A DNA stretch of 64,000 nt, taken from assembly GCA_963575745.1 (NCBI GenBank), contig CAUYUJ010000181.1, forward strand, positions 496,001 to 560,000, read 5' to 3'. A program made the position numbers and the translations under genes. Origin of the DNA: Prorocentrum cordatum (lineage: Eukaryota). This document shows, in pieces, positions 2,118 to 58,170 of this stretch (positions are counted from its first letter, which is position 1; the number at the start of each line of letters is the position of its first letter). The notes beneath the pieces are model-generated. The model searched no databases, had not been told where the DNA came from, and was given only the letters and a program-made list of their open reading frames with translations.

Positions 2118-2269
2118 TTAGGTCGGGCGTGTCCTCCTAAGCGCGGATCGTTTGCGAAAAATAACAAACATTCACAACATACTCAACCAAATATTCAAAA
2201 CAAAGACGCCCCTAGACTATTTTTACAATTTTCGCATACTCATCCTGTCGAGGGACACGCTCGACTTAA
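2118..2269. mobile_element. MITE family B (TTAGGTCGGG...CGACTTAA), 8-bp TSD
   Basis: Termini TTAGGTCGGGCGTGTCC / GGACACGCTCGACTTAA are inverted repeats. Direct repeat GGCTAGCC at 2110-2117 and 2270-2277. Confidence 0.85.
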
Positions 2270-5488: not shown

Positions 5489-5800
5489 TTGAGCAGGGAC
5501 CGACCGTCCCGGTTTTCCTCCTCCTCCTCCCCCTCCGCCTCCTCCTCCTCCTTCTCCGCCTCCTCCTCCTTCTCCTCCTCCTCCTCCTCCTCCTCCTCCA
5601 CCTCCTCCTCCTCCTACCGCAAAATGTTCTCACAACCCACAAAATATTCGAAGGACAAGGACAAGGTTCTCAGAACAGAGCCCCGACGTGTGCAAGCACG
5701 ACGGTCTCGGCCAGGAGAGGCTCTGAGAACAGGTCGCGCAGACCACAAGAGGTTCTTAGAACACTCTCTGGCGGGCCCATTGGCGAGCCAGGACGCCTCG
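5489..5800. mobile_element. MITE family A copy interrupted by a (CCT)n tract
   Basis: Starts TTGAGCAGGGACCGACCGTCCCGG and ends ...GGCGAGCCAGGACGCCTCG, like the copies at 11798, 42719, 53548 and 57458. Confidence 0.75.
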
Positions 5801-6027
5801 CTTCGCCCCTGCACGGCGAGGCATCCACGGAGGAAGCCGAGGAGAGCACGGCGCGGCCGCGCGGCGGCTCACGGCAGCGACCTCGAACCACAGGCAAGCG
5901 ATACTCACAGGAGGCCTCGTCTCGAGCCCTCCCCGGGGCATGTGGCCGGTGCCAGCCGCACCCCCCCGCTAGCCGGTGTTCTTCCTCCGGCTACCACGCA
6001 AGGAGCGGCCTATCTAGAGAGCAGAAA

Positions 6028-11639: not shown

Positions 11640-11797
11640 TTCGTCGGGCCTGTCCCCCTGCAGGGGGGTTTTTGGACGAAAAATGAAACATAGTCAAAAC
11701 ATGCCCCAGAATGGCGAAAACACATTCGGAAAATTGTCCCCAGACTATTTTTCGACTATTTTTGAAGACTCCTCCTGCAGAGGGACAAGCCCGACTT
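11640..11797. mobile_element. MITE family B copy (a partial copy also lies at about 11309-11433)
   Basis: GTCGGGCCTGTCCCCCTGCAGG...CCTGCAGAGGGACAAGCCCGAC inverted termini. Confidence 0.8.
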
Positions 11798-12030
11798 TTG
11801 AGCAGGGACCGACCATCCCGGCATTCTTATAGTCCTACCACGACATGTTCTTAGAACCCAGCAATGTTCTAAGAACAGAAACAATGCTCTTAGTACATGA
11901 ACCCGATGTGTGAAAACAAGACAGACTCAACCAGAAATGTTCTAAGAACATTTCGTGGAAACCACAAAAGGTTCCTAGAACATTGTTCGGTAGGGCTATA
12001 GGCGAGCCAGGACGCTTCGCCACCGCTTGA
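11798..12030. mobile_element. MITE family A copy abutting a family B end
   Basis: TTGAGCAGGGACCGACC...GGACGCTTCGCCACCGCTTGA, with internal GTTCTTAGAAC motifs. Confidence 0.82.
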
Positions 12031-12117
12031 CGAGGCAGTCCTTCGCCCGCTCGAATCCTCCGCCCGGCTCGCGGCGTGCAGATCGCACGGCAGGCCCCCT
12101 GAATCCCAGGGCCAGGC

Positions 12118-12305
12118 TTATGTCGGGCGTGTCCCCCTACAGGGGGATTTTCGACGAAAAATACAAAAAACAAAACACTCCAAAAAGGTCAGACAATATT
12201 CAAAACATAGTCCCCAGACTATGTTCGGATTATGTTTGGACTATTTTAAAAGTATTTTTTATTGTTCGTCGAAAATCTCTTTGTAGGGGGACAGGCCCGA
12301 CTTAA
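12118..12305. mobile_element. MITE family B, 8-bp TSD
   Basis: TTATGTCGGGCGTGTCCCCCTACA / TGTAGGGGGACAGGCCCGACTTAA. GGCCAGGC at 12110-12117 and 12306-12313. Confidence 0.88.
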
Positions 12306-12390: not shown

Positions 12391-12589
12391 TAGGGGAACA
12401 GGCAATGACATAAACATAAAAACTCGGAGGTACGCGCGGATTTCTCGGATCGGCGCTGGACCCCCCTCCCTGGCGCGCGGAGCGCGCCAGGGGCGGCATC
12501 GGAGGCGCCGCCAGGGGGCTCCAGCGCCGATCCGAGAAATCGGCGTGGACCTCAGAGTCTTTATGTGTATGTCATTGTTTGTTCCCCTA
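12391..12589. mobile_element. Fold-back MITE family C, 5-bp TSD
   Basis: Homologous to 6028-6225. GGAGG at 12386-12390 and 12590-12594. Confidence 0.88.
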
Positions 12590-12599
12590 GGAGGGGCGC

Positions 12600-14600: not shown

Positions 14601-15433
14601 GGCTCGGAGCAGCTGCGCAACTTCCAACTGCGCTGCTCCAAAAGTCGACCAGAGACCTGAAAATGGCGAGGAAAAGGAGGAGGTGGTGGCGGGTCAGCAG
14701 GAGGATGAACAGGACAGGGGGGGCAGAAGGAAGATAGGGGAGGCCCGGCGGGCCAGCGGCAACATTTTGAGGCCAACGCTGCAGCGGCAACACCAGCTCG
14801 AGATACCGAAGGAGTTCCAATCGAAACGAAAACCTAGGAGAGACCACCTCGTGAGATCCTGTGCGTCAAGAGAGCAATACGCAGAGGGGACGGGCTACTC
14901 CCTGGCCCCCTCCGGGGTGGAGGGGAATGTAGCACGCATATCAAGCCAGGTACGCCCGCAGCACCAGATCTGACAGATCTGACATCCTGCCATTCCCTCC
15001 CAGCCCTTCCCGTTGCGCTGGTCTTTCCCTATCGCGTACTGGGAGAAACGGGGAGGCTGGGCGACCAGGCAAAGTTCAGCAGCGGCCGCACGCGAGGGGG
15101 AGGCAGAGGCTCCAGTGTGGCCACCGCTGCGCCACTACCCCTAAAGATCGAGGGGCCAAAAGGCGGTGGCAACATTAGGGGTGCGTCCTTCGGAATGGGG
15201 GAACATTCAAGATCGGCATCGAAACAAAGGCGATACCAATCCTGAGGATGGAGGTGAGAGCCGTGAGGCCGCAACGCAGCGCGAGGCGAGGATGCTGGGG
15301 GAGAAGCGGCCAAGGCGGCGCAGAAGAGGCACCACGACCCGTCGGCCACCCCGCGCTGCAGGACGGCGCAAGCTTCGGCCAGAGGGCGAAGAGGACCAGC
15401 CGCGTACCAGGCGCTGGGGCTGAGTCCTAAGAG

Positions 15434-19250
<3,817 letters not shown>

Positions 19251-31180: not shown

Positions 31181-32042
31181 CGCCGGAGAAGCGCCCGCGC
31201 CGCAGTGCCGCACAACAGCACCTGCTGGCCTACGGAGCACAGGCCCGCCCTCCCGGGCCGCACGGGCGCCACGTGGAGGGCGACCAGCGGCAAGGGGAAC
31301 GCCGAAGAACGAGTCCGCGGGCAAGTGACCCACACACTGCACCCTGGATCTGAAGCCCCGGGGTACAGGACATTCCCCGCAGGTCTGAGAGACTCACGGA
31401 GCTCCGGGAGGCGCAGACCCACTGAGGCATCGGAGGGCCCAGCTGTGCCCAGAACAGGACAGGGTACCTGATCTGTCCGAGCCGGTTCCGATCTTACCGG
31501 TTGAGCACTCACTGAGGCGGGCTAGAGCCATTGTTGAGCGCCTGGGGCCCACGGACGGCGTCGGCACATCAGCAGTTGCCACGGAACCATTCACCCGGGG
31601 TGCCCGGGTGCTTCCTCCCATCCAATCGCCATCCTCATCCACCTCCTCCTTGTCGTCTTCACGTTGTCAAGAAGTCCCTCCTCGGGAGGAGGGTGACACA
31701 GACCCGACAGCAAGCAAAATGCGTCGAAATTCCCCTACATCAGGCCCACCCTCCCGTGACACAGCCATCAGCTAGGACCGAGCAGGAAGGACACATGATC
31801 AAAAAAGAGTGAGAGAGAGGCGGCAAGGTGAAACAGAAAGGTGAGAGAGGAATACGAGCAGCAGTGCCATCCTTGTTTAAAGGGAGGAGTACGAAGAGGA
31901 GGAAAGAGGAGGACGAGGAGGAAGACAAGGGAGGAGAGAAGAGAGGACACTTGCCAGCAAGGGAATGACGGAAAAGGCGGGAGGGAAGGAGGAGGACGGG
32001 GGGCATGAAAATGGTGGACGTTGGAGGAAGATCCAATCGATC

Positions 32043-32372
32043 CTGGTGCAAGGCCCTCGCCTCTGGCTTGTCGAAATTGCCGAAGTCCTGCTCCCGGATG
32101 TAGACGTCCTCTACCCAGTCGATGGCGTCTTTGCCGCCAAAGGACTGCGCGATGCCGAAGAGGGTCTCCATGGCCCGCACGTACGGCGAGGACACGAACT
32201 CGGCCGACCCATCGCCGATGATAGACTTCAACCTCCTGCCACACTCGAGCGCCTGCTCTCGGCCCTTGGCCGTCAGGTGGATGAGGTGGTCGGGCACGCT
32301 CTGGGTGATGCTGCGGTGGAGGTTACCCTCGGACTGGCCGTGCCGGATCAAGATGACCCGCTTGGGCCGCAT
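32043..32372 (-). CDS. Gene 2 first recognisable exon: histidine phosphatase (phosphoglycerate mutase-like, DET1-like broad-range acid phosphatase)
   Basis: RPKRVILIRHGQSEGN, VPDHLIHLTAKGREQA, SSPYVRAMET, IREQDFGNF. Donor CAG|GA. The frame stays open up to a possible TAG|G acceptor at 32450. Confidence 0.92.
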
Positions 32373-32949
32373 GGTCTGTTTTTGGAGGTACTTGCTGCCG
32401 GGAGAGACAGCATGCTCCTCGGAAGTCCCAACGCATCTGCCAGCTGGGCCCTACTCTCCTCCATCCTCCCCTCCCCCCTGTGCTGACGCTCCCTCCACCT
32501 CTCTCGCCTCCGTCTTCTCCCTCTCCTCTCTCTCGCCCTTCCTTCCGTTAACTCTCCTCGTTTTCCCCCGCTCTCGTCATCCGAACCCCCCAGTCTTCCC
32601 CCTCCTCCCTCCTCCCTTCTCCTCCCTCTGCTTGATCCTTCCCCGTTTCCTCTTTCCCCCGCTCTTCCCCGCCCTTCTGCTTCTGCTCCTCCTCCTCCGC
32701 AGCAGCAGGCTGACACGACAAGCGCTGGAAACGACGCCCCCCGCCCTGGCTCCTTGCCGCCGTCTCCGTCGCCCGCGTCCCTGCATTCGCGCGGGCAGTC
32801 TGCAACGTAAAGCTTCGACGACACAGAGAGTGAACATGGGGGAGAACGAGAGGCGCGGAGCGCTCGCGCCACACCTGACCTCCTACCCCTCTCGCCCATT
32901 CCTTTCCATGGCATTGATTATTTCCATGCGCGGACGCGTGCCATAGTGG

Positions 32950-34135: not shown

Positions 34136-36935
34136 AATTATCCCGGCAAAGCAACCTAACAGCGATGTGTAGAAGCATATCTGAAAGCATTTCCCTTAAG
34201 ATTCAGATGAAAATCCAGTTGTAGAATTCTGCTGTTCTCGCAGTCGTAGTCGCATTCGCGATGACAGTCGCAGCGGCAACGGCAGTCGCAGTCACAGCCT
34301 CAGCCTCAGCCTGCCTCAGCCTCAGCCTCAGCCTGCCTCAGCCTCAGCCTGCCTCAGCCTCAGCCTCAGCCTGCTTCAGCCTCAGCCTCAGTCTGCCTTC
34401 AGCCTCGGCCTCAGCCTCAGCCTGCCTCAGCCTCAGCCTGCATCAGCCTCAGCCTCAGCCTCAGCCTGCCTCAGCATCAGCCTGCCTCAGCCTCAGCCTC
34501 AGCCTGCCTCAGCCTCAGCCTCAGTCTGCTTCAGCCTCAGCCTCAGTCTGCCTTCAGCCTCGGCCTCAGCCTCAGCCTGCCTCAGCCTCAGCCTGCCTCG
34601 GCCGCAGCATCAGCCTGCCTCAGCATTCAAAATGTGGCCCAGGAATGGAGTTCTGGGAACTAGAAGAACACGAAGTGGCCTACAGTTGGCTCCGGGCATT
34701 CAAAATCATGCCCAGGAATGGAGTTCTGGGAACTTGAAGAGCACGAAGTGGCCTACAGTTGGCTCCGGGCATCCAAAATGTGGCCCGGGAATGGAGTTCT
34801 GGGAAATCGAAGAGCACGAAGTGGCCTACAGTTGGCTCCGGGCATCCAAAATGTGGCCCGGGAATGGAGTTCTGGGAAGTCGAAGAGCACGAAGTGGCCT
34901 ACAGTTGGCTCCGGGCATCCAAAATGTGGCCCGGGAATGGAGTTCTGGGAGCACCAAGAGCGATTTTGCGAGGATGTCCAAAGCGATTTCGGCTTCGGCG
35001 GCAGCCTTCCGGGTCCCGCCCAGACCCCCCTGAGGAGTCATGATGCTCTCTTTTGAGACCAGTAGAAACCTATCAGCAAGAGCTGTTAGGTAATTATCCC
35101 GGCAAAGCAACCTAACAGCGATGTGTAGAAGCATATCTGAAAGCATTCCCCTTAAGATTCAGATGAAAATCCAGTTGTAGAATTCTGCTGTTCTCGCAGT
35201 CGTAGTCGCATTCGCGATGACAGTCGCAGCGGCAACGGCAGTCGCAGTCACAGCCTCAGCCTCAGCCTGCCTCAGCCTCAGCCTCAGCCTGCCTCAGCCT
35301 CAGCCTGCCTCAGCCTCAGCCTCAGCCTGCTTCAGCCTCAGCCTCAGTCTGCCTTCAGCCTCGGCCTCAGCCTCAGCCTGCCTCAGCCTCAGCCTGCATC
35401 AGCCTCAGCCTCAGCCTCAGCCTGCCTCAGCATCAGCCTGCCTCAGCCTCAGCCTCAGCCTGCCTCAGCCTCAGCCTCAGTCTGCTTCAGCCTCAGCCTC
35501 AGTCTGCCTTCAGCCTCGGCCTCAGCCTCAGCCTGCCTCAGCCTCAGCCTGCCTCGGCCGCAGCATCAGCCTGCCTCAGCATTCAAAATGTGGCCCAGGA
35601 ATGGAGTGGAGTTCTGGGAACTAGAAGAACACGAAATGGCCTACAGTTGGCTCCGGGCATTCAAAATCATGCCCAGGAATGGAGTTCTGGGAACTTGAAG
35701 AGCACGAAGTGGCCTACAGTTGGCTCCGGGCATCCAAAATGTGGCCCGGGAATGGAGTTCTGGGAAGTCGAAGAGCACGAAGTGGCCTACAGTTGGCTCC
35801 GGGCATCCAAAATGTGGCCCGGGAATGGAGTTCTGGGAGCACCAAGAGCGATTTTGCGAGGATGTCCCAAGCGATTTCGGCTTCGGCGGCACCGCCCCGG
35901 GTCCCGCCCCCTCCCCCCTGTGGAGTCATCTGCTGCTCTCTTTTGAGACCAGTAGAAACCTATCAGCAAGAGCTGTTAGGTAATTATCCCGGCAAAGCAA
36001 CCTAACAGCGATGTGTAGAAGCATATCTGAAAGCATTCCCCTTAAGATTCAGATGAAAATCCAGTTGTAGAATTCTGCTGTTCTCGCAGTCGTAGTCGCA
36101 TTCGCGATGACAGTCGCAGCGGCAACGGCAGTCGCAGTCACAGCCTCAGCCTCAGCCTGCCTCAGCCTCAGCCTCAGCCTCAGCCTCAGCCTGCCTCAGC
36201 CTCAGCCTCAGCCTGCTTCAGCCTCAGCCTCAGTCTGCCTTCAGCCTCGGCCTCAGCCTCAGCCTGCCTCAGCCTCAGCCTGCATCAGCCTCAGCCTCAG
36301 CCTCAGCCTGCCTCAGCATCAGCCTGCTTCAGCCTCAGCCTCAGCCTGCCTCAGCCTCAGCCTCAGTCTGCTTCAGCCTCAGCCTCAGTCTGCCTTCAGC
36401 CTCGGCCTCAGCCTCAGCCTGCCTCAGCCTCAGCCTGCCTCGGCCGCAGCATCAGCCTGCCTCAGCATTCAAAATGTGGCCCAGGAATGGAATTCTGGGA
36501 ACTAAAAGAACACGAAGTGGCCTACAGTTGGCTCCGGGCATCCAAAATGTGGCCGGGAATGGAGTTCTGGGAACTCGAAGAGCACGAAGTGGCCTACAGT
36601 TGGCTCCGGGCATCCAAAATGTGGCCCGGGAATGGAGTTCTGGGAAATCGAAGAGCACGAAGTGGCCTACAGTTGGCTCCGGGCATCCAAAATGTGGCCC
36701 GGGAATGGAGTTCTGGGAAGTCGAAGAGCACGAAGTGGCCTACAGTTGGCTCCGGGCATCCGAAATGTACGCCGGGGATGGAGTTCTAGCAGCGCCAAAA
36801 GCGATTTTGCGAGGATGTCCCAAGCGATTTGGGCTTCGGCGGCAGCCGTTCTGGGTCCCGCCCCGACCCCCCTGTGGAGTCATCTGCTGCTCTCTTTTGA
36901 AACCACTAGAAACCTATCAGCAAGAGCTGTTAGGT
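34136..36935. repeat. Three tandem copies of a 0.9-0.95-kb unit containing (CCTCAG)n and 73-bp sub-repeats
   Basis: AATTATCCCGGCAAAGCAACC recurs at 34136, 35092 and 35982. The 73-bp period is seen at 34788/34861. Confidence 0.95.
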
Positions 36936-39900
36936 AAAAAGCATGCGACAAAAATGATGAAATGGAGGGGTAGAAAGCGGGGACAATGACCAAGATTGAA
37001 CGCGGAAACATCGTGCCGATCTTGGTCACCGTCGATCTTGGTCAGCGTCAGTTCGTGGCCCATCCCCGCGAATGGGCGACTGCCGACATGGACCATGACC
37101 AAGATCGGCATCAACAACATCCCGCGACATCTTGGTCATGGTCCCCGAGTTTCTTCCCTCGATGAAACCTGGTGTAAAAAATACGCGGAGGGGGGCGGGG
37201 GGCTACTCCCTGGTCAGGGGGAGCGAGGAGAGCCGTCTGATTGTCGCATTCCACCAGCCCTTCAGGGCGTAAGTGGCTTCGAGCGTTTATCTTTTGAAAC
37301 AATTTTCTTTCGCATGAGAGTTCGTCGAAAACCATGACCACAAATATAAATGTGTGCAACAATTACTCGGGTGGGGGGCAGTTCATCGTCGAAAGGGGGG
37401 TATCGCTCGACACGTGGTTGAACGACATGATCATAATCCCACCAGCCCTTTAGGGCGTGAGTGGTTTAAAGCGTTTCCTCTTCCAATTCCCCTTCTTGCC
37501 CTTCGAGGAAGGGCTTATCACTGTTTCCTATTAATAAACACCCCCCCTAGGCGACCGGCGGCCAACCAAGACCAATGAAGACACGACCCCACCATCCCTG
37601 TCAAAAAAATCGAAATCCACGTTGAAGCAAAATCTTGGGTCATGACCGGGAGGCGCGAGCATTCAGCATTGTTTTTTGACAGGGACGGCGGGGGTGCCAC
37701 CATATTCACTGTTGCGCGCAGGGCCAGCATCCCTGTCAGCTAAACGACAATCCAACATGCACTTCGAGGCGCAAAATGTGGATCATACGCGGGCGCCCCG
37801 CGTAAATTGTGCATTGGTTTTTGACTGGGACGGCGGAGGTGCTGGCATATGGCCTGCTGTGTGCAGGCGCACCAGACACTATGATGGCCAACCCCCCCGC
37901 GATTGCGCACTGGTTTTCGACAAGAGCGGTGGGGGCCGACACGTTTCCCGATGTGTAGTGCCGCGTGCGCAGGCGCACCTGGCACACTCTGCGCGAACCC
38001 CGAACGTGGCGCAGATGACGCGGCTGGAGCATGCGGCACACATGGAGCACATTGACCACGTGGCGCATCTGGAGCACCAGGTGTGCCTGGCACGATTGGG
38101 CCGAAGGAGTGCGTGGCGCACCTGGCGCGCGTGGCGCGCCTGGAACGCGTGGCGCACCTCGCCCCAGCGTGGCGCACTTGGGGTCTGTTTTGGTTCCCAG
38201 TAGCTGTCCATTCAAAAACGACCGCTGAACATGCTGCGGCTCGGGTGCCACTCATGTGTTGGAGAGGCAGGTGGGAGTGAGCGAGACGGCTTGCGGGCGG
38301 GGAGGGTGTCCTGACTCTTCCCCCTACCCCCCCTGGACCTGCAGGGAAGAGGGGGGGCGAGGTGTCAGAGGGTGGTTTGGGGCTCAAGATGGCTCCAAGA
38401 ATGCTTCGAGGAACCCAGTATCACCCTCAAGATGACCCAAGGTAGTGCAAGGTCGCCAAAAGTGGCGTCCAACATGAGACCCCAAGACGAGTCCACGACG
38501 GGTACACGTGGGCCGGGGGCCTCCCCAGGAAATTCCCAAGCCAAGCAATCACTCTAACAGTTAAAAACAATCGATGGTGTTAGCCCTCTCCACCTTTCGC
38601 TTCCGATGGGTTCCCAAAGCCTCGATATGGCTCCAAGGGCCCAAGAGGGCTCCAATATGGGCTCAGGACGGCCCCAAGACGCCGAGAGGCGACTCTGAGA
38701 GTTCCAGAGAGGGGACCGCAGGACCCTCCTCATTGATCGATATTTTCTAAAATGTTCCCAAGAAGGCCTCCACGGCCCCCATGAGGACCCCAAGAAGGCC
38801 CCGAAGAGGCCCCCGGGACCGCCATGGGACACTCAAGACCCCCCAAGGGGCCTCCAAGCGGCCTCCGGCCCTTTTGCTTGCAATCCTTCTCCTCCTCCTC
38901 TTCCCCCCCTCCTCCTCCTCCTCCTCCTCCTCCTCCTCCTCCTCCTCCTCTTCCTGCTCCTCCTCCTCCTCCTCCTCCTCCTCCTCCTCCTCCTCCACCT
39001 CCTCCTCCTCCTCCTCCTCCTCCTCCTCTCTCCTCCTCCTCCTCCTCCTCCTCCTCCTCCTCCGCATCCTTCTCCTCCTCCTTCGCGCTCCTCCCTCCTC
39101 CAGTCTCCTCTTGGGGCACGACGGCCCCCCAAGCCCTTTATTCCACTGCATGCTCGTCCACATCCCTGACCAGGGCAAATTCTGGGCATCGTTTTTGGAT
39201 AAGCTGGCGGGTTTACTTTTTGTTCGCGAGCGCGCAGGGGTGCCAGGCGCCGTCAGGGAATTGCAAACTAGCAGTGGCCTAAGTTACCCACTAGGCGCGC
39301 AGGAGCGAACTACGCTGCGACTCAGAAGCGCGGGGGACCCAGAACAGCTCCAGGTCAACGTGCAACGCCAATATGGTGAAGAGCCAGATGACGTCGAACT
39401 CGAAGACCACCAGGCTGGTGGGTTTACGTGAAGCGTTTATAATAAGTATGGAGGAGGAAAAAGTAGAACGTACGCACCGTTCGCTTCCGATTGCGCTCGC
39501 TGCTAGTCGCGCCGTCCCTTTGGGCGTAGGTGGTTTACGGAGTTCCCTCCTCGAACCCCTCGTATTTCCTTTCGGGGAGGGAGGCCCCTGGGTCTGCAGG
39601 CGGGGGGCTCGACCAGCCAGGGCGTCAAACACATCACAGGATGGCTCCTAGAGGGACCGAGAACGTACAACGTGGCATCCAAAGTTGATCTAGATTTCCC
39701 ACTACATGGTTCGAGATGGCATCGAACATGCATCCAAGAGGCCCTGCGGCCCCGCCCTCCAAGACGGCTGCGTGCAAGTGCCACGGGCCGCCCACTCAAT
39801 CACATCCCATACACCGAATGTTCAGCATCATCGCCTTTTCGCTTCCGATGAGCTCCTGCGGCCTCAGGATGGCTTCAAGATTGGCCAAGAGAGCCGCGGG

Positions 39901-42028: not shown

Positions 42029-42718
42029 CGCCAAGAGACCGACGCCGGAGGCACAAAGAGGCGGCGCGGACAGAACAAGTGCCGGAGGTCCGCGCGCGGA
42101 CCGTCGGTGGGCCCCCTCCCGGGCGCGCGGGGCGCGCCGGGTCTGGCGCCGAACCGAGGAGATCCGCGCGGAGCTCCGAGAGAGTCTCGGCCGATGCCGT
42201 CGGGGGTGCTTCGATCGGGGAGCAGCAACAACTACACCAGTGACCCGCCGCCGCGGGCAACCCGTCGCAGCGCGCCACTGCTGAGGGAGGCCCCCTATGC
42301 GACTGGGAAGGAGCACCAGGGAATCCCGACGAGGCGAGGAGGCTCAGGCAGCACGCTGGCGGGCCCCCGGCGGCCGTGCGCCACTGATGCGCGGATCGGG
42401 GCGGGATGGAGACAGCCGCAGCTCCAAATTGGTCCCCGAAGGCCTCCCCCGGGACCCAGAGGCACCAGCTCTCCGCGCTGCGTCCAGCAGCTGCGACGAG
42501 GGGGGGCCTCCGAGGACCGCCGACCGTTGTCTCAACCTCGCCGTCCTCTGATTGTCGACGCCGTGCCACGGACCCTGGAATCCGACGTCGCGACGACACG
42601 TGCAGCATCGCGAAAAATCGCGCAGCCCGAGCACCAGACTCCACCCGCCTGCATCCTTCTCCGAGCCGGATCGATCTGTGATGGCCCTGGGTTCCGAAAC
42701 GAAGCAAAATCGCTAGTT

Positions 42719-42950
42719 TTGAGCAGGGACCGACCGTCCTGGCATTCCTATAGCCCTACCACGACATGTTCTCAGAACAAAAACAATGTTCTTATAGCAT
42801 AACAACCCCGATGCGATAAAACAAGACAGACTCCGCCAGAAATGCTCTAAGAACATGTCGTGGAAGTGTTAAGAACATTTCGTGGAAACCACAAAAGGTT
42901 CTTAGAACATCGTTTGGTAGGGCTATAGGCGAGCCAGGACGCTCCGCCGC
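42719..42950. mobile_element. MITE family A copy
   Basis: TTGAGCAGGGACCGACCGTCCTGGCATTCCTATAG...GGTAGGGCTATAGGCGAGCCAGGACGC. Confidence 0.8.
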
Positions 42951-43005
42951 TTCGCGGCGCCAGGCTGGGTCTCAGCGTTCTGCTCCTCGCCCTCCTCGGA
43001 AGCCA

Positions 43006-50812: not shown

Positions 50813-51017
50813 CTTACTGTGCGACTTGGCTGCACGCGACGCGCAACCCACAGCGTGCTGACACCGAGCTCAACGCGCAGATTGAAAATGCACTTCTTCG
50901 CGGTGCTTTCGCCGAGACATCGGTCAACGCGTGCCGAGATGACACGCGGCGTGATGACACGGACGTCTTGAACACGGTACGTGTTGCGTTGCAAACGGGC
51001 GTATCAGGGCAGCTAAG
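50813..51017. mobile_element. Repeat family E, free copy (CTTA...TAAG)
   Basis: 205 bp. Its 3' part is homologous to the 204-bp element at 54961-55164 (GACACGGACGT..TGAACACGG.ACGTG.TGCG..ACGGGCGTATC). Confidence 0.7.
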
Positions 51018-51233: not shown

Positions 51234-52637
51234 GTCCAAAGAGGGAGATGAGGGGGAGTGGTACGGGAAGAGCTGGGAGGAGGGAGCCCAGAAAGGAAGA
51301 CAGAGAGGGAGGGATGACGATGAGGGAGGGAGGCGCGTCGGGAGGACAAGGCGAGGGACGAGGAGGACGGAAAGGGGGGGGGTATGGCGAGAAGGTTCGC
51401 ATCGCGAACCGAAGCTGTTTTGCAGGCGCCTTCGGCGTCTAGCCTCTCACACAGCGTGGTATTTTCCACAAGCTGTCCGTGCAACTGCTATCGTGTGTGC
51501 GAGAGGAGGGAAGAAGAAGGGATACTATCCTGCACCTTCTCCTACTCCTCCTCCTTTTTCGCCTCCTCCTCCCCATCATCACCGTCACCATCGTCAACAA
51601 CAGCACCAACCTTATCATCATCGTCGTCATCATCATCCGCACCATCATCATCGTCGTCATCATCAGCATCGTCAGCATGACGATGATGATGATCATCAGC
51701 ATCATGATCATCACAATCAACTGCATCACCACCATTGGACAATTATCATCAGCATCGCCATCGCAATCATCACCACCATCACCATGACTATGACCATTAC
51801 CATGAGCATGACCATGACAATTACCATCTCCATCACTAACCTCATCTACATCAGCATCAGCATCATCACCAGCATCACATTCGATATCATCATCATCCTC
51901 ATCAGCAGCATCAGCATCAGCATCAACTAATCATCAGCATCAGCAACAGTAACGTCATTATCATCATCAGCATCATTTCCATCATTATCAACACCATCAT
52001 CATCATCAGCATCATCATGATCATGATCCTGTGCCCGAGTCATACATCTGCACCAGAAGCAACCTCATCACCATCATCATAATACATCAACGGCAATGAT
52101 CTTGTGTCCAATCCGGGGAACTGGAGAATGCATGCTCCTCCGTCCGGTGTCCCTCCTGGTCCTCCTCTTTGGGTGTGTGTGTGTGGTCTGCGCCGCGGCT
52201 GATGCTAAACAAAAACTTCCTCCTCCTACCCTTCTTTCTCTCTCGCTCTCTTTCCCTCGAGCCTCATTCTTGGGGAGACGGACAGCTTACTGCTCAACCT
52301 CCAGCTCCACAAGTCTAGGCCTCCGACTACTCCAGGGAGCGCCTACTCCAACCGACGCCTCCCTCTCTCCTCCCTCCCGACCTCCCTTCTTCCCCCTCAC
52401 TCCTCTATTGGTTCCTGCTTTACGCTTTCTCCTCCTTCTGCACCTCCTCCTCCTCCTCCTCCTCCTCCTCCTCCTCCTCCTCCTCCTCCCCCTCCTCCCC
52501 CTCCTCCCCCCCTCCTCCTCACAGAAGCAATGGGGGAACTTGGGTGCAATGCACTGCGCCCGCGGCCGCGGCGGAGTGCCGTTAATTCCGTGAGCGAGCC
52601 GGTCCGCCAAGAGAACCTGTTGAACTCGAGGCTGGGC

Positions 52638-52787
52638 TTAGGTCGGGCGTGTCCCCCTACAGGAGGAATATTCAAAAATAGTCCGGAAGTCATGTGAGGA
52701 CGATTGGTTGACTGGTCTTGACCATGCTTGCATATGTTTGATATCTTCGGCAGAAAATCTGCCTGTAGGGGGACATGCCCGACCCAA
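52638..52787. mobile_element. MITE family B, 8-bp TSD, just downstream of the gene 3 stop
   Basis: TTAGGTCGGGCGTGTCCCCCTACAGG / CCTGTAGGGGGACATGCCCGACCCAA. GGCTGGGC at 52630-52637 and 52788-52795. Confidence 0.9.
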
Positions 52788-52813
52788 GGCTGGGCGAGCA
52801 CGCCCCGTCCTGC

Positions 52814-53543
52814 TCAGATCTGCAGGGAGAGCATGCAGGCGTCGGCCAGGTACTCCATCGCCTGGGCCGAGGGCGCCCGGCCCGCGCTGCCCTCCTCCTC
52901 CCAGGGCTCCGGGATCTTGTTGTGCCTGGCCACCGCCGAGGACTTGCTGCTGCCGGCGCGGCTGCACGCCGAGGGCAGCCGCACCCTCGGGGCGCTGCCG
53001 CTCGGGTCCGGGTCCGAGGCCCTCCCGGCCGTCTCGGCGCTGACGAGGCTGTCGCTGTCGGAGTCGCTGGGCACGTCGCGGCGGCGCTGCGGGCGGTCGT
53101 CGAAGACCTCCAGGATCTCCTCGTCGCCCGCCCGCTCGAAAGTGCCGGTGAGAAATCCTTCGGGCTGCTGTGGTTCGACCTCGGGCTCGGCGGCCTGCGG
53201 CTCCACCTCCGGAGGCTCACGGGACGCCCAGCCCTCGCCCTCTGCGTGCGCGCGGCTCAGGTGCCTCCACCAGAGCATCGCGACCACGAGCACACAGAAC
53301 ATGGTCACGGCACAGGCACCCAGGCTGGCGACGAAGAAGAGCACCCTCTCGTCCAGGGCGTTGATGCCACTGACGGCGGCGTCGTAGTTCATGGTCACCG
53401 TGGTGTGGGTCGCTGTGAGCGAGGTACCCGTCTGCGTGGTCGATGTTAGCGAGGTCTCTGTGGTGGCTTGCCTTCCGATGGTCGTGGTGAACAGGCGCGG
53501 TGCTCTGGTCACCTCCACGGCCTCGAGGTCCAGCCCGGAGCTC
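52814..53543 (-). CDS. Gene 3 exon 4: Thr-rich stalk, transmembrane helix and acidic cytoplasmic tail
   Basis: Acceptor ATCAG|G. Reads SSGLDLEAVEVTR...VLFFVASLGACAVTMFCVLVVAMLWWR...LSLQI*. Confidence 0.8.
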
Positions 53544-53781
53544 CTGATTGAGCAGGGACCGACCGTCCCGGCATTCCTATAGGCCTACCACGAAATATTC
53601 TTAGAACCCCAAAATGCTCTAAGACCAAAAACAAGGTTCTTGGAACATAAGCCCGATGTGTTAAAACAAATCAGTCCCAGCCAGAATTTGTCTAAGAACA
53701 TCTCGTGGAAACCACGAAAGGTTCTTGGAGCACTGTCTGGTAGGCCTATAAGCGAGCCGGGACGCTTCGCCACTGCTCGAC
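53544..53781 (-). mobile_element. 238-bp GT-AG intron formed by MITE family A, 5-bp TSD
   Basis: Element 53548-53780 has imperfect TIRs of about 40 bp. CCTGA at 53543-53547 and 53781-53785. Splicing restores FLRSSG. Confidence 0.85.
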
Positions 53782-53886
53782 CTGAGGAACTCCGCCCGCA
53801 GGGCGGCCTGCGGGCTTGCCGCCAGAGCCAGCAGGGCATCCGCGTCGGCCGCTCGCGCGATGATCAGCTCGTACGCGACCAGCACG
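53782..53886 (-). CDS. Gene 3 exon 3
   Basis: 105 nt, phase 2-2, VLVAYELIIARAADADALLALAASPQAALRAEFLR. Lies between two MITEs. Confidence 0.78.
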
Positions 53887-53892
53887 CTGGAG

Positions 53893-54741
53893 TCAGGTCG
53901 GGCACGCCCCCCACAGGCGGAGCTTAGACGAAAGATCACAAAAATAGTCGAAACGTGCTCCAAAACGGTGAGAAGCGTAGTCGAAAATTATCGTCTCCAG
54001 ACTGTTTTTTCTTATACTATTTTTGAACATCTTGGACGCCCGAAATGGGCACAGAAACAATGGGCACAATGCCCAACGGCAAATGTTGTCCCGAACCAAC
54101 AGCGGCCGCTGTTGGGCAGGCGGCCTCCTGTCTCGAATGGACACGGGCCGCGGCGGCGCGGACGGCGAGCCCTGTTCAAAATGGACAGGATCCGCTGTTT
54201 GTCATTGTTCGGTAGCCGGGCAAGGGATGCTAAATCCGTGGCTGCTAAAATCAATCTCCGGGAAGTTGTCTTCGTCCTTCCGGGAAGAAGCCCAGTGACT
54301 GTTTCGCGTACCGCGCCTCATTCCGGGAAGTTGTTTTTTCCTTCCGGGAGGGCCGTTTTAGCAGCCACGGTTTTAGCAGCCCTCGCCCAGCTCCCGAACT
54401 GTACCCACTCTTTCCGTGCCCATTTCGCTGGTGCAGAAACGCTCCTCCTGCAGAGGGACGTGCCCCAAAACCGTGAGAAGAGCAGTCAAACAAAAAAGTC
54501 GTCCCCAGACTGCCTTTTTGACTGGTTTTGCAAGGGCTCCCAATTTCGCGCTTCGCGCTCCGCGAAGCGCGAAGCGCGAATACCTTCGCGCTCTCGCGCC
54601 GACCCCCGGAGGGAAAAAAGAGGACGAGGAGGAGGGGGAGAAGGAACGAGGACCACAAAGCGCGAAGCGCGACTAACTTCGCGCCCTCGTGGGAGCCCTT
54701 GTTTTGAGCACTCCTCCTGCAGAGGGACGTGCCCGACTCAA
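53893..54741. mobile_element. MITE family B with nested insertions, forming gene 3 intron 2 (predicted 53887-54737), 8-bp TSD
   Basis: TCAGGTCGGGCACGCCCCCCACAGG / CCTGCAGAGGGACGTGCCCGACTCAA. CGCTGGAG at 53885-53892 and 54742-54749. Confidence 0.8.
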
Positions 54742-54955
54742 CGCTGGAGCGGCCGGCCGCTCCCCGCGGAGCTGCCTCGCCGAGCCGCCGCGTGGCGCCC
54801 CCGTCGGAGACCGCGAGCCTCGCGAGCTCCGAGGGCTCCACGCCGAAGGCCGCGGCGAGCACCCCCCGCCACAGGGCGGCCGAGCCGGCGTCGATGCCGC
54901 CGGCGGCGGAGCCGTCCAGCGTGGCGCGCACGGCCGACGTGAGCGCGTTGGTCTC
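54738..54955 (-). CDS. Gene 3 exon 2
   Basis: ETNALTSAVRATLDGSAAGGIDAGSAALWRGVLAAAFGVEPSELARLAVSDGGATRRLGEAAPRGAAGRSSV. The exact donor position is inferred. Confidence 0.75.
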
Positions 54956-55167
54956 CTCCGCTTATGCTGCCCCGATGCGCCGCACGCAACACGTGGCGAG
55001 TTTTGCTACGGAGCTCGACACGTGGACTGGTTAAACGCAGGTCCGACGCGATGCGTTGGCCAAAACGTGGGCCAAGACGTGGAGCCAACACGCAACGCAT
55101 CGACACGGACGTACTGAACACGGGACGTGCTGCGATTCAATACGGGCGTATCGAGACAACTGAGCTC
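54956..55167 (-). mobile_element. 212-bp GA-AG intron formed by family E, 8-bp TSD
   Basis: CTCCTCCG at 54953-54960 and 55165-55172. Splicing restores NISAE|ETNAL. Confidence 0.8.
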
Positions 55168-56697
55168 CTCCGCTGAGATGTTCCCCGCCAGCCAGAAGCA
55201 CTCGGAGACACCGACGGTGACGCCGTCCAGGCACGAGAAGGAGCCCACCGCGATCATGTCATCGGGGCAGGCGGCCCAGCAGCGCTCCCCGCTGGCCAGG
55301 TTTGCGGTGCAGTTGCTGGGGCCGCCAGCTTCATCCAGCGCGTTGCAAGTGGCCTCCGCCAGAGTAGCATCGTCAAGTTTCGCAGCAAGCTGCAGCTGGA
55401 GGTCGATCGTACTTCGGAGCGGCAGCCCGAACTCGCCCAGGGCGAACTCCAGGCCACAGCGGTCCACGCAGCAGGCGCTGGTGTCAAAGTCGTTGGGGGC
55501 ACAACCAGTGCAGACTGAACCGCAAGGGCATGCAGTTGTGTTGCTCCAGTCGCAATATATGTGGGTCGACGTTGTCGAGGTGGTCGTACTGGTTGTACTT
55601 CTGGTCGAGCTGGTCGTGCTGGTCGTGGTGGTCGACAGCGATGTACGCGTGATGGTGTCCGACTTCGTGGTGGCCGACATTGTAAACGTCGAGGTGACAC
55701 ACCCCTTGTCCATGCACGTGCAACACCAACTCTTCTTAGGGTTGGACCATCCAAACTCCGCAGTTTCCAACCCTGCATCGCAATCATACAAAGGGCACCC
55801 GTAACCACTGTTCCTGCAACACCACTCAAGCTCCACCATGCTCCACAGCGTGCATGCACTCTCCTGGTCCATGGCTGACTGGCAGCCCGACTCTACGGTG
55901 AAACTGCTCGTGGAAACAGTGGAGGTGGTAACTGACGTTGTGGTCATGGTTTGGGACACGCTCGTCGAGGAAGAGGCGCTCGTCGTGGAGACGGTCGTGA
56001 TTGATGTTGCAGTCCGGCTTGTAAGCGTTTCTGTCACAACCGTGGAAGTGGCCGTCTCCGTCGGGCATCCCATGCCTTCGTTCTCGCAGCACCACTGTAG
56101 CTTCCAACCAGACCAAGCTGTGGCGAGATCTTCAAAATCGGCTGTGCAGTCAAACGGGCCGCCGAAGGGTGTGGTCGAGGTGGTCGTGGTGGTCGAGGTC
56201 GAAGTCGTGGTCCTTGTAGTGGTCACTGTCGTAGACGTCGTGGTGCTAAGCGTGCTTGTTGTGCGGGTGGTGGTGCTGGAGGTGGACGTCGATGATGTGG
56301 CCGATGTAGTGGAAGTGGTGGACGAGGTGGTGGTTTCGCAGCATTGCATCTGGTCTGGTGGCTCGCAGGCTTGCGCGGAGGGTAACATGGAACTGGGCCT
56401 CATGCTCAGGCCGCTGGGGCACGCTTCGCTGGAGCAGGCGTAGCACTGCATGGACTCCAGCGCGGGGCCCACCCACGAAGGCACGGCGGGGATCCCCCGC
56501 AGCCGCGCCCGCAGCTCGCCGCGGAGCAGTTCGGGGTCCCCAGGCAGCCCGAACAGCTCGAGCACGCCCTCCACTGTGGTCGGCTCGGCGCCCTGGGAGC
56601 TCACGCGGCGCAAGGGCGCGCCACCCGGAGCGCCGCCGTATGCGGCAGACTCTGCCGCTGCCAGAAGCAGGAGAAGCCGCAAGGTCGCGGCCCCCAT
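55168..56697 (-). CDS. Gene 3 exon 1: signal peptide, Thr-rich tracts and Cys/Trp repeats (cell-surface protein)
   Basis: MGAATLRLLLLLAAAESAA signal-like start (alternative ATG at 56724). Repeats FDCTAD..WSGWKLQWCCENEGMGC, WSMVELEWCCRNSGYGC and YDCDAG..WSNPKKSWCCTCMDKGC. Confidence 0.85.
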
Positions 56698-56843
56698 GCC
56701 GCCATGGCGGGGCTGCAGCTGCATCGCGACTCGCAGCTGCGCTGAAGCCAAAAGGGGTACAGAGGAGGCGGGGAGGCGCGAGGGCTGCGACGGGGCAGCC
56801 TCGAGCAGCGCGACGACCAGCCACGTCCGCCGCAAGGACCCCT

Positions 56844-57162
56844 CTTGAGGGCCTGTGCGCTTTCCATCACGCTTCGCCAGCTTGCGCCGCCAAAGTCGCC
56901 ACTGCTTTCGTTCTGCCAACTCGGGGACCTTCTGACCCGGGTCAAGCCAGACCCGGGTCAGCAGGAAACCAAAAACTGCAATGCAGGAAACAAAAAAAAA
57001 AACGCAACGCAGGTCTTCGCAAACCCGGGTCAGCCAATATGCGCGGCCGCCTCGCGGCCACAAGCGGCTCGCTAACCCGGGTCAGCCAGAGGGGGTCTTC
57101 GCAGGATCCTGCAGGATCCGGTGCCGTCGCTGACCCCCGTTTGCATTGACCCCCGTCTCAAG
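56844..57162. repeat. Probable short insertion element upstream of gene 3 (CTTGAG...CTCAAG)
   Basis: Short inverted ends and a repeated palindrome (T)GACCCGGGTCA. No clear TSD. Confidence 0.45.
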
Positions 57163-57457
57163 GCTCCCGACCAACCTCCGCGGGCCTTCCGCCGGCCTCG
57201 GCCGAGCCGCGGGGAGAGAACCGCCGACGCCCAGCTCCCCGGACGCCTTCGCGTGGCCTCCGCCGATCTCCCGGTGGCTCCCACGTCGCCCCGCGCCCGC
57301 AGAGGTGCGTGCCGCGCACGGGCAGGCGCTGGCACGAAGTGCGCGCGCAGCTCTTGAGGGTACACGGTCTGCGGCCCAGTTGGAAACACCACACCTGCGT
57401 CTCTCTGGCGCTGAGCTCCAGCCCCAGAGGCTCTGGGCGCTCTCCCAAGCGGTGGAG

Positions 57458-57690
57458 TTGAGCGGGGACCGACCGTCCCGGCATTCCTATAGTCCTACCA
57501 CGAAGCGTTTTTAGAACCTACAAATGTTCGAATAACGAAAACAATGTTCTTAGAACAGAAGCCCGATGTGATACAACAAGACAGGCTCCGCCAGAAAGGT
57601 TCGAAGAACATTCCGCGGACACCACAGCAGATTCTTAGAACCCTCTTCGGTAGGCCTCTGGGCGAGCCAGGACGCCTCGCCACTGCTTGA
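57458..57690. mobile_element. MITE family A flanked by a direct duplication of about 110 bp
   Basis: 57352-57457 is repeated at 57691-57806. Confidence 0.85.
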
Positions 57691-58170
57691 TCTTGAGGGT
57701 GCACAGGTCTGCACGGCCTGCGGCCCGCTTGGAAACACCACGCCTGCGTCTCTCCGGCGCGGAGCTCCAGCCCCAGAGGCTCCGGGCGCTCTCCCAGGCG
57801 GTGGAGGGTGGCCGTGGCGAGCCGCGGGGGGGGGGGGGGGGCACCCGCACGCCGGCGGGACCACCCTGCTCGGCGAGGAGGTGGCTCCTGGGACAGCGGC
57901 GGGGCGGTCTGCTGCCGTGCGCAGAGCGCTCGCGGTCTTCGCCCCGGTGCTATACCCAGCCGCCTCGCCACCAGTGCCAGGGCGCCGCCTCGCCCTCTCG
58001 CTCCCTCGCTCCCTCGCCCCTCTCGCTCTCTCTCTCGCTCGGGCTCTCCCTCCCTCCCTCCCTCTCTCCCTCCCTCCATCCCTCTCTCCCTCTCTCCAGC
58101 TTTTTGTTCCTTGTTCCTCTCTCTCTCTATTATATCTCTCTTTTATCTCTCTCTTCTCTCTCTCTCTCTG

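What the first reader, a model, noticed from the sequence alone, without database searches (positions are those of the whole stretch)
54953..55172. Family E intron uses a GA donor and takes both splice sites from the 8-bp TSD
The TSD on the minus strand is CGGAG|GAG. The first copy supplies the GA donor and the second supplies the AG acceptor, so the element itself contributes no splice dinucleotide. This only works in a lineage that accepts GA donors. The element ends are CTTA...TGAG (CTTA...TAAG in the sibling at 50813).
Basis: partly seen in the sequence, partly recalled or inferred. Interest (0 to 1): 0.7.

Follow-up and report, generated by a model that had tools for sequence, protein, structure and literature searches.

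The report
Transposon-made GA-AG intron in a dinoflagellate gene
A 204-base mobile element sits inside a coding exon of a Prorocentrum cordatum gene and is cut out of the messenger RNA as an intron whose two splice sites come from the duplicated target site, which is real but is a kind of intron already described in dinoflagellates.

Summary
CGGAGGAG (minus strand) stands at 55172-55165 and 54960-54953, around a 204-bp element at 54961-55164. The repeat in fact runs 10 bp.

RNA contigs in 4 of 4 runs laid, from four studies, skip exactly 212 nt, which is the element plus one repeat copy. No contig enters the insert.

Of the 11 cut placements the repeat allows, only one reads G[T/C/A]...AG.

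The window is Prorocentrum cordatum by protein identity. In its published gene models, 23.8% of donors are GA. All three public models of this locus already carry this intron.

Introners that take both splice sites from an AGGH target-site duplication, and 8-nt-TSD classes that splice in several frames, were described in Polarella glacialis. So this is a new member of a known kind, of low interest.

The more unusual thing is next door. Intron 2 of the same gene is an 849-bp transposon plus its TSD. It is removed precisely, yet no canonical splice pair is available.

The parts
55165..55172 (-). Upstream TSD copy (CGGAGGAG on the gene strand). Its first 5 bases end exon 1 (last exon base 55168). 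Its last 3 bases (GAG, 55167-55165) start the intron and supply the GA donor.
54961..55164 (-). Family E element, 204 bp, 59% GC, a non-autonomous MITE-like insert. It reads CTCAGTTG...GCATAAG on the gene strand and holds the in-frame stop at 55008-55006.
54953..54960 (-). Downstream TSD copy. CGGAG (54960-54956) ends the intron and supplies the AG acceptor. GAG (54955-54953) starts exon 2.
54956..55167 (-). The intron as read (212 nt, phase 0, GA...AG followed by G). It is missing from RNA contigs of 4 of 4 runs.
55168..56743 (-). Exon 1 of the host gene (ATG at 56724). It encodes a signal peptide, Thr/Ser-rich stretches and Cys-rich W..WCC..G.GC repeats. RNA contigs cover it with 0 differing letters.
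54741..54955 (-). Exon 2 (...EETNALTSAVRATLDG...AAGRSSV).
50813..51017 (+). Sibling copy of family E. Its right part is 74% identical over 108 nt. Its right end, inverted, matches E's left end. No TSD was found, and no RNA evidence was obtained for it.
53893..54741 (-). Context: an 849-bp composite transposon of another family (ends TCAGGTCGGGCACG / TTGAGTCGGGCACG, 8-bp TSD CGCTGGAG on +). With one TSD copy it makes up intron 2 (857 nt skipped), which has no canonical splice placement.
53544..53781 (-). Context: intron 3, 238 nt, GT...AG. It is an older copy of a 5-copy repeat family (family A).
52638..52787 (-). Context: a 150-bp hairpin transposon of the same family as the 849-bp element (TSD GGCTGGGC on +), in the 3' UTR. 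RNA contigs show it both skipped (158 nt) and retained.

Best explanation
A non-autonomous cut-and-paste DNA transposon (family E, 204 bp) inserted into a coding exon of a Prorocentrum cordatum gene for a secreted, membrane-anchored, mucin-like protein. The insertion duplicated 8 bp of exon, CGGAGGAG on the gene strand.

That 8-mer contains AG|GA. The first copy therefore offers a GA 5' splice site and the second copy, at the same offset, offers an AG 3' splice site followed by G. The dinoflagellate spliceosome accepts GT, GC or GA donors. It removes 54956-55167: 3 bases of TSD, then the element, then 5 bases of TSD, 212 nt in all. The original codons ...GCG GAG|GAG ACC... are restored, a phase 0 intron.

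Shown: the repeat, the family relationship, the exact 212-nt removal in RNA, and the restored frame conserved in paralogs.

Inferred: that the spliceosome does the cutting, and that the cut lies at AG|GA within the repeat.
For: -: the joint 54952->55165 (skips 212, both = 10) is present in 4 of 4 runs from four studies. Two are polyA RNA; two have no kind on record but are RNA-like, with zero-depth introns. There is one contig per run, with 101-215 letters on the shorter side and 0 differing letters over 1270-1282 nt spanning four exons.
- Depth in the two bins over the insert equals exactly the exon share of that contig in every run. For X2, 80.2 x 44/183 = 19.3 and 80.2 x 110/183 = 48.2 (my arithmetic). 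So no contig enters the element.
- 1 of 11 possible placements is G[TCA]...AG (GA...AG, AG|G context).
- removal restores one ORF from the ATG at 56724 to a stop. Unspliced, the frame stops at 55008-55006.
- four paralogous transcript proteins (P0002, P0003, P0006, P0007) read ...VEE(K/R)N... straight across the site.
- 3 of 3 public gene models of this locus read NISAEETNALTS.
- 209-nt contigs retaining the 3'-UTR transposon 2.3 kb away, with its flanks (X1 depth 14, X2 depth 11.7), show that the element-bearing haplotype is transcribed in those runs. Yet nothing with E appears.
- GA is 23.8% of annotated donors in this species.
- introners taking both sites from an AGGH TSD, and GA enrichment in young introns, are documented in Polarella and Symbiodinium.
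- 2-9 bp identical intron-boundary repeats containing AGG are described for dinoflagellates.
Against: - The cut position is not observable from contigs. CT...AG and CG...AG placements also end in AG.
- In the same transcript, intron 2 is removed just as precisely with no G[TCA]...AG placement at all (0 of 10). A canonical pair is therefore evidently not always needed, or some of these 'introns' are absent in the DNA of the expressed copy.
- All evidence is from assembled contigs, which drop rare variants and carry no strand.
- No DNA run of the same strain was laid, so an expressed copy without the insert is not formally excluded.
- The family rests on two diverged copies. No further copy was found, and no genome was available.
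Confidence: 0.78

Rival explanations
1. The element plus one TSD copy is removed from the RNA, but not as a GA...AG intron. Either another placement is used, such as CG...AG with the element's own terminal TAAG as acceptor. Or the mechanism does not read splice dinucleotides at all, as proposed for the inverted-repeat/direct-repeat introners of Amoebophrya, in which case GA...AG is incidental.
For: - Intron 2 of the same mRNA (857 nt, transposon plus TSD) has only CG...AG or GT...GC placements, yet it is removed cleanly in 3 of 4 runs.
- E also has a CG...AG placement (k = 8).
- The 3'-UTR element offers only CC...AG on the gene strand.
- 0 of 3 public gene models reproduce the intron-2 junction seen in RNA.
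- AGG acceptors are only 79.7% in this species against 93-97% in other free-living dinoflagellates.
- Non-canonical introners with direct and inverted repeats exist in Amoebophrya.
Against: - E does have a rule-conforming AG|GA...AG|G placement, and by the published gene models GA donors are common in this species.
- E does not fold into an end-joining hairpin: z = -1.68, and 10 of 200 shuffles fold as well. The 150-bp element of the other family gives z = -6.71.
- Non-G donors are reported for Amoebophrya but not for core dinoflagellates in the texts I read.
Confidence: 0.1
2. The RNA does not come from this DNA. It comes from an allele, strain variant or near-identical paralog that lacks the insertion (an empty site). 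The element-bearing copy in the assembly is then silent or a pseudogene. An empty site looks exactly like 'element plus one TSD removed'.
For: - Precise loss of element plus one TSD is the signature of an empty site.
- Three transposons with intact TSDs are all precisely missing from the contigs, whether or not splice sites exist. The old, degenerate family A copy, by contrast, has a plain GT...AG.
- X4 and P0005 carry TSD + 4 nt + TSD at the intron-2 site (+12 nt, VDSS). That looks like a DNA excision footprint, so DNA-level polymorphism exists at this locus.
- Paralogs share identical 3' parts.
Against: - Contigs retaining the 3'-UTR transposon of this same haplotype are present in X1 and X2 at depth 12-14, while E-containing RNA is absent.
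- The contigs match the window's exons with 0 differences over 1.27 kb plus 1.06-1.1 kb.
- Only one copy of the gene lies in the window.
- In two protein searches, the only P. cordatum genome-derived proteins above 90% identity are the three models of this one locus on one contig.
- All three public models of this locus carry the intron.
Confidence: 0.1

Closest known systems
Introner-like elements of Polarella glacialis: classes 13/14 (both splice sites from an AGGH TSD) and class 3 (8-nt TSD, several splicing frames). Roy et al., bioRxiv 10.1101/2020.10.14.339549, later Curr Biol 2023. I read parts 1-2 of 4 of the preprint.
   Same: A DNA-transposon insert in a coding exon. Intron = element + one TSD. 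Both splice dinucleotides are taken from the duplicated exon sequence with the motif AG|GH. The TSD is 8 nt, as in classes 3, 6, 8 and 10. GA donors are typical of young introner-made introns. A G follows the acceptor.
   Different: A different species (Prorocentrum) and no sequence relationship tested. In classes 13/14 the TSD is the 4-nt AGGH itself, whereas here AGGA lies inside an 8-nt TSD. Only two copies were seen, so the family's usual mode is unknown.
Introners of Aureococcus anophagefferens and Micromonas pusilla (Huff, Zilberman and Roy 2016). Not read here; known to me only as cited and summarised, plus recall.
   Same: A non-autonomous DNA transposon with a TSD creates a spliceosomal intron on insertion, co-opting TSD sequence as a splice site.
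   Different: There, one splice site is carried by the element and the other comes from the TSD, with canonical donors. Here, neither comes from the element and the donor is GA.
Identically repeated intron boundaries (IRIB) of dinoflagellates. Mendez et al. 2015, PMC5032977 (passages).
   Same: A 2-9 bp identical repeat at both intron ends, present once in the mRNA and containing AGG, with the splice placed between the two Gs.
   Different: That paper describes the pattern without a transposon origin. Here the repeat is 8-10 bp and bounds a recognisable repeat-family member.
Introner elements reported in P. cordatum itself. Dougan et al. 2023, PMC10666404 (passages and supplement passages).
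   Same: Same genome. Introns with terminal inverted repeats plus short direct repeats were found in 2.4% of introns. The annotation pipeline was modified for GC and GA donors.
   Different: Their search pattern was 8-20 nt inverted repeats plus 3-5 nt direct repeats. In the text I saw, no families, TSD lengths or sources of splice sites were described. The supplementary tables S1/S2 were not among the two files held as text.
Non-canonical introner elements of Amoebophrya A25/A120. Farhat et al. 2021, PMC7789003 (passages).
   Same: Direct repeats overlapping the exon/intron borders and MITE-like anatomy. The resemblance is closer for the neighbouring intron 2 and the 3'-UTR element than for E.
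   Different: Amoebophrya introners lack any consensus dinucleotides and form end-joining hairpins. E has a rule-conforming GA...AG and no significant hairpin.

Membership tests
Introner (intron-generating transposable element) | The segment is removed from mature mRNA exactly as an intron | tested here: met
   A 212-nt skip in 4 of 4 runs, with no contig inside the insert. The frame is restored.
Introner (intron-generating transposable element) | Member of a multi-copy sequence family whose copies form introns in unrelated genes | tested here: inconclusive
   Two copies in 64 kb (74% over 108 nt, E = 1.7e-12). The sibling's intron status is untested. No genome was available. No copy was found in metagenome contigs: 3 loci, none alike beyond the 22-27 nt motif.
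Introner (intron-generating transposable element) | Transposon hallmarks: target-site duplication and terminal inverted repeats | tested here: met
   The TSD is 8 bp, perfect (the repeat runs 10 bp). The TIR is weak within this copy (41 of 500 shuffles as good). It is clear across copies: E's left end against the inverted sibling right end scores 34, against 15 for same-sense left ends.
Introner (intron-generating transposable element) | Spliceosomal boundaries acceptable to the host (G[T/C/A]...AG in dinoflagellates) | tested here: met
   1 of 11 placements, GA...AG with AG|G. Host usage of GA is 23.8%.
Both-sites-from-TSD mode (Polarella class 13/14-like) | [quoted passage not shown] | tested here: met
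   The TSD is CGG-AGGA-G, with the cut between AG and GA. In a simulation over this gene's CDS, 744 of 2619 sites would allow any canonical removal of E. Of these, 619 work through a TSD starting with GH plus the element's AG. Only about 26 sites per internal offset work through an internal AGGH.
hAT-superfamily MITE | 8-bp TSD | tested here: met
   8-bp TSD. However, 8 bp is not unique to hAT (recalled: P, Merlin, Zisupton and others).
hAT-superfamily MITE | Characteristic terminal motif and a related autonomous element encoding a hAT transposase | not testable with these tools
   No genome was held. The termini CTTA.../CTCA... do not obviously fit the recalled YARNG motif. I do not file it as hAT.
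Amoebophrya-type non-canonical introner | No canonical dinucleotides; inverted repeats form a hairpin that joins the exon ends | tested here: not met
   A canonical GA...AG is available. The fold has z = -1.68 with no terminal stem.

The most novel reading that the evidence does not exclude
Prorocentrum cordatum, a core dinoflagellate, can remove a transposon plus one copy of its target-site duplication from RNA precisely, whatever the boundary dinucleotides. This would be an Amoebophrya- or Euglena-like non-conventional route. On that reading, the GA...AG of the family E intron is incidental, and the 857-nt intron 2 (CG...AG or GT...GC) and the 3'-UTR element (CC...AG) of the same gene are the revealing cases. 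It would also explain why all three public gene models of this locus fail at intron 2.
Probability: 0.15. Interest if true: 0.7.

Novelty: new member of a known kind. Interest (0 to 1): 0.25.

Why it matters
For the finding itself, little changes. It is a clean, RNA-supported example, in a bloom-forming dinoflagellate, of how a transposon insertion becomes an intron at once by borrowing both splice sites from the duplicated exon sequence. It also illustrates why relaxed GA donors make that easy. The intron is already in the public gene models, and the mechanism is already in print for Polarella.

The neighbouring intron 2 matters more. If transposon-bounded introns without any G[TCA]...AG pair are truly spliced in P. 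cordatum, then gene models built with GT/GC/GA-AG-only aligners will be systematically truncated or frameshifted, as all three models are here. Non-canonical introner removal would then not be confined to the parasite Amoebophrya.

Tried and rejected
- **Phage collection, blastn with E:** no match.
- **Metagenome contigs:** scanned with a 22-nt family motif. This gave 3 loci, alike only over 22-27 nt, so they are chance matches.
- **Earlier findings of this scan:** nothing by place, by sequence or by words.
- **Pfam on 30 long ORFs:** the host protein has no family. The only matches were His_Phos_1 at 31743-32450 and a sub-threshold DUF2417.
- **Rfam on the whole window:** 0 matches.
- **Hairpin model for E:** rejected (z = -1.68).
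- **TIR+TSD scans:** these did not pick up E. They found four copies of another family plus one internal palindrome (5 hits, 8 overlapping hits). Shuffles gave 0-1 hits and 0-2 hits.
- **Second copy of the host gene in the window:** none.
- **Elements at 2118-2269 and 12118-12305:** tested for sitting in coding exons, but no convincing ORF spans them, so they gave no further splice test.
- **Intron 2, rescue by two successive canonical splices:** rejected on paper. No step can supply an AG before GTGCTGG.
- **Intron 2, the GC...AG intron of public model P0001:** this adds 10 nt and shifts the frame, and it is not the junction seen in RNA.
- **Sibling at 50813-51017:** I looked for a TSD and for a + strand GC...AG reading. 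Neither is convincing, and no RNA was laid there, because I kept the single read-laying run to a stretch free of long simple repeats.

Full report
**What is in the sequence**

On the minus strand the 8-mer CGGAGGAG stands at 55172-55165 and again at 54960-54953. Between the two copies lie 204 bp (54961-55164) that read CTTA...TGAG on the + strand. On the + strand the identity actually runs 10 bp: CTCCTCCGCT at 54953-54962 and at 55165-55174. The 'both = 10' says the same.

Four elements of another family in the window have clean 8-bp duplications. I therefore read this one as an 8-bp TSD plus two chance matches. A repeat of this length is common by chance in 64 kb (my estimate from base composition). 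Its meaning comes from the RNA.

**The organism and the gene**

The upstream ORF (55009-56724, minus strand) finds a 600-aa 'unnamed protein product [Prorocentrum cordatum]' at 97% identity, together with paralogous transcript-derived proteins. The cluster look-up shows three public models of this one locus on one 666,656-bp contig. No whole genome was available to me.

Joined as the RNA indicates, the gene encodes:
- a signal peptide;
- Thr/Ser-rich stretches;
- Cys-rich W..WCC..G.GC repeats;
- one transmembrane helix and a cytoplasmic tail.

The ATG is at 56724, and the stop lies about 27 nt upstream of the 3'-UTR element. The protein has no Pfam family.

I laid Logan contigs of four runs from four studies on 52530-57990. 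Two runs are polyA RNA. Two have no kind on record, but they have zero-depth introns and so behave as RNA. I chose this stretch to avoid long simple repeats.

All 4 of 4 runs carry one contig with the joint 54952->55165, skipping 212 nt. The shorter side holds 101-215 letters. There are 0 differing letters over 1270-1282 nt spanning four exons.

Depth in the two bins over the insert equals exactly the exon share of that contig in each run. For X2, 80.2 x 44/183 = 19.3 and 80.2 x 110/183 = 48.2 (my arithmetic). Nothing in the contigs therefore enters the element. Contigs do drop rare variants, so low-level retention is not excluded.

Removing the 212 nt restores the frame ...NISAEE TNALTS... 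Unspliced, the frame stops at 55008-55006. Four paralogous transcript proteins read VEE(K/R)N straight across the site.

**Where the cut lies**

The 10-bp repeat allows 11 equivalent placements:
- Three end in AG: CT...AG, GA...AG and CG...AG.
- Only one is G[T/C/A]...AG.

This intron is phase 0 and has the AG|G context usual in dinoflagellates. In this reading both dinucleotides lie in the TSD copies and none in the element.

The placement is an inference from the splice rule, not an observation.

**Is the rule valid in this host?**

Table 2 of the P. cordatum genome paper gives donor usage of GT 24.7%, GC 51.4% and GA 23.8%, with AGG acceptors at 79.7% (PMC10666404, passages). These figures come from a pipeline that admits only those donors.

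All 3 of 3 public models of this locus read NISAEETNALTS. This very intron is therefore already annotated.

**Is it a transposon?**

- A second copy lies at 50813-51017. Its right part is 74% identical over 108 nt (E = 1.7e-12).
- E's left end aligns to the inverted right end of the sibling (score 34, against 15 for the two left ends in the same sense). The family therefore had terminal inverted repeats.
- Within E itself the two ends have drifted apart: 41 of 500 shuffles score as well.
- The RNA does not fold into an end-joining hairpin (z = -1.68).
- The sibling has no recognisable TSD (my reading).
- No further copy could be found.

Both strands of the family end in ...AG (TAAG on one strand, CTGAG or CTAAG on the other). 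The family may therefore normally give the acceptor when the TSD starts with GH. In this copy the TSD starts with CG, so the internal AG|GA would be the only usable pair.

I simulated insertion of E at every site of this gene's CDS. Of 2619 sites, 744 (28.4%) allow some canonical removal. Of those, 619 work by 'TSD starts GH plus the element's AG'. Only about 26 sites per internal offset work by an internal AGGH. This copy's mode is thus the minority mode, but it is not an extraordinary one.

**Comparison with what is known**

- Roy et al. (preprint 10.1101/2020.10.14.339549; parts 1-2 of 4 read) describe 15 introner classes in Polarella glacialis. In class 14, and in part of class 13, both splice sites are recruited from an AGGH TSD. 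Classes 3, 6, 8 and 10 have 8-nt TSDs, and class 3 uses five frames on either strand. GA donors are enriched among recently gained introns.
- Mendez et al. 2015 (passages) described 2-9 bp identical intron-boundary repeats containing AGG.
- Dougan et al. 2023 report introner elements in 2.4% of P. cordatum introns (supplement passage).
- The 2025 PNAS introner survey does not mention Prorocentrum in its main text (0 occurrences).
- My searches found no paper describing this family, or the source of splice sites in P. cordatum introners. Supplementary tables S1/S2 of Dougan et al. were not among the two files held as text.

The finding is therefore a new member of a known kind.

**Rival: transcripts from an empty site**

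An allele or paralog without the insert would give the same contigs.

Against this rival:
- 209-nt contigs that retain the 150-bp 3'-UTR transposon of this same haplotype, with both flanks (52608-52816), are present in X1 (depth 14) and X2 (depth 11.7). Nothing containing E is present.
- The contigs match the window's exons without a single difference.
- Only one gene copy lies in the window.
- Two protein searches found no other genome-derived P. cordatum protein above 90% identity besides the three models of this locus.

I put this rival at about 0.1.

**The neighbouring oddity**

Intron 2 of the same mRNA skips 857 nt in X2, X18 and X1. That is exactly an 849-bp composite transposon (53893-54741; ends TCAGGTCGGGCACG / TTGAGTCGGGCACG; TSD CGCTGGAG on +) plus one TSD copy. 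None of its 10 placements is G[TCA]...AG; the nearest are CG...AG and GT...GC.

X4, and the transcript protein P0005, carry instead TSD + TTGA + TSD. This adds 12 nt (VDSS). It reads either as GT...GA splicing or as a DNA excision footprint.

The three public models handle this intron in three different ways, and none matches the RNA (0 of 3):
- a GC...AG intron that shifts the frame (...VESACWSRTS);
- another frameshift (...RSSRAGRV...);
- an in-frame GC...AG intron that drops 15 codons (...GGATRVLVAYE...).

These readings come, with junctions worked out by hand.

The 150-bp element of the same family in the 3' UTR is skipped (158 nt; depths 38.5, 16.1 and 67.5 in X2, X1 and X4) as well as retained. 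It offers only CC...AG on the gene strand, though GC...AG on the opposite strand. It folds into a strong hairpin (z = -6.71, with 0 of 200 shuffles as good).

Some of this may be paralog or strain DNA variation. If instead it is RNA processing, P. cordatum would share with Amoebophrya the removal of introners without canonical boundaries. The texts I read do not report that for core dinoflagellates. This is why I leave 0.1 on a non-GA mechanism for E, and 0.15 on the bold reading.

**Verdict**

The mechanism and even this intron's annotation are already public, so interest is low (0.25).

The item worth a follow-up is intron 2 and its relatives.

Noticed in passing
window 53884-54749 (intron 2 of the same gene, minus strand): An 857-nt segment, an 849-bp composite transposon plus one 8-bp TSD copy, is precisely absent from RNA contigs of X2, X18 and X1. 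None of its 10 possible cut placements is G[T/C/A]...AG (only CG...AG or GT...GC).
   Followed up: partly
window 53892-54738; proteins P0005 vs P0012: Run X4 and transcript protein P0005 carry TSD + TTGA + TSD at the intron-2 site (+12 nt, extra VDSS) instead of the precise junction. This looks like a cut-and-paste excision footprint, or else GT...GA splicing, and suggests strain-level polymorphism of this transposon.
   Followed up: partly
window 52629-52795 (3' UTR of the same gene): A 150-bp hairpin transposon (z = -6.7) with TSD GGCTGGGC is both skipped (158 nt) and retained in RNA contigs of the same runs. On the gene strand only CC...AG is possible. On the opposite strand it reads GC...AG.
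   Followed up: partly
window 2118-2269, 12118-12305, 52638-52787, 53893-54741: Four copies of one transposon family (ends TTAGGTCGGGCGTGTCCCCCTACAGG..., roughly 26-30 nt TIRs). Their clean 8-bp TSDs are GGCTAGCC, GGCCAGGC, GGCTGGGC and CGCTGGAG. Three of the four start with GGC on the + strand, which with the element's final A would give G|GC...AG|G introns on that strand.
   Followed up: partly
public models P0001, P0010, P0011 of this locus (window about 52817-56724, minus strand): The three public P. cordatum gene models (600, 733 and 843 aa) all carry the family E intron correctly. Each mis-handles intron 2 differently (two frameshifts and one 15-codon deletion). The true C-terminal half, with the transmembrane helix, is right only in transcript-derived proteins.
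   Followed up: yes
window 5612-5801, 11796-12050, 42717-42951, 53548-53799, 57458-57698: A five-copy family of about 240 bp (ends TTGAGCAGGGACCGACC... / ...CACTGCTCGA). The copy at 53548-53799 is the GT...AG intron 3 of the host gene. The copy at 11796 is inserted next to the end of another element.
   Followed up: partly
window 3674-3829/51064-51225; 8414-8515/50522-50622; 8618-8782/44173-44338/44454-44617; 41902-42033/58878-59006; 43877-44054/54032-54208; 6028-6228/12391-12592: Several more short interspersed repeat families (76-94% identity between copies). One of them is palindromic (6028-6228 matches 12391-12592 in both orientations). The window is dense in MITE-like repeats.
   Followed up: no
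window about 15300-19250: A roughly 4-kb low-GC stretch (40-43% against about 62% elsewhere) made of imperfect AGT/GTAGTC-type repeats with 9-12 nt periodicity.
   Followed up: no
window 34136-36937: Three tandem copies of a unit of about 950 bp (92-96% identical). Each copy holds CCTCAG-rich 22-nt repeats and 73-nt repeats.
   Followed up: no
window 31743-32450 (minus strand): This ORF holds the only clear Pfam match in the window among the 30 ORFs scanned: histidine phosphatase branch 1 (E = 1.5e-14).
   Followed up: no
protein P0004 vs P0003: The public model of a paralog on another contig (P0004, 501 aa) stops at ...GTSECW, about ten codons before the position equivalent to the family E site. 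The transcript protein P0003 runs on through it. This may be another intron the annotation could not model.
   Followed up: no
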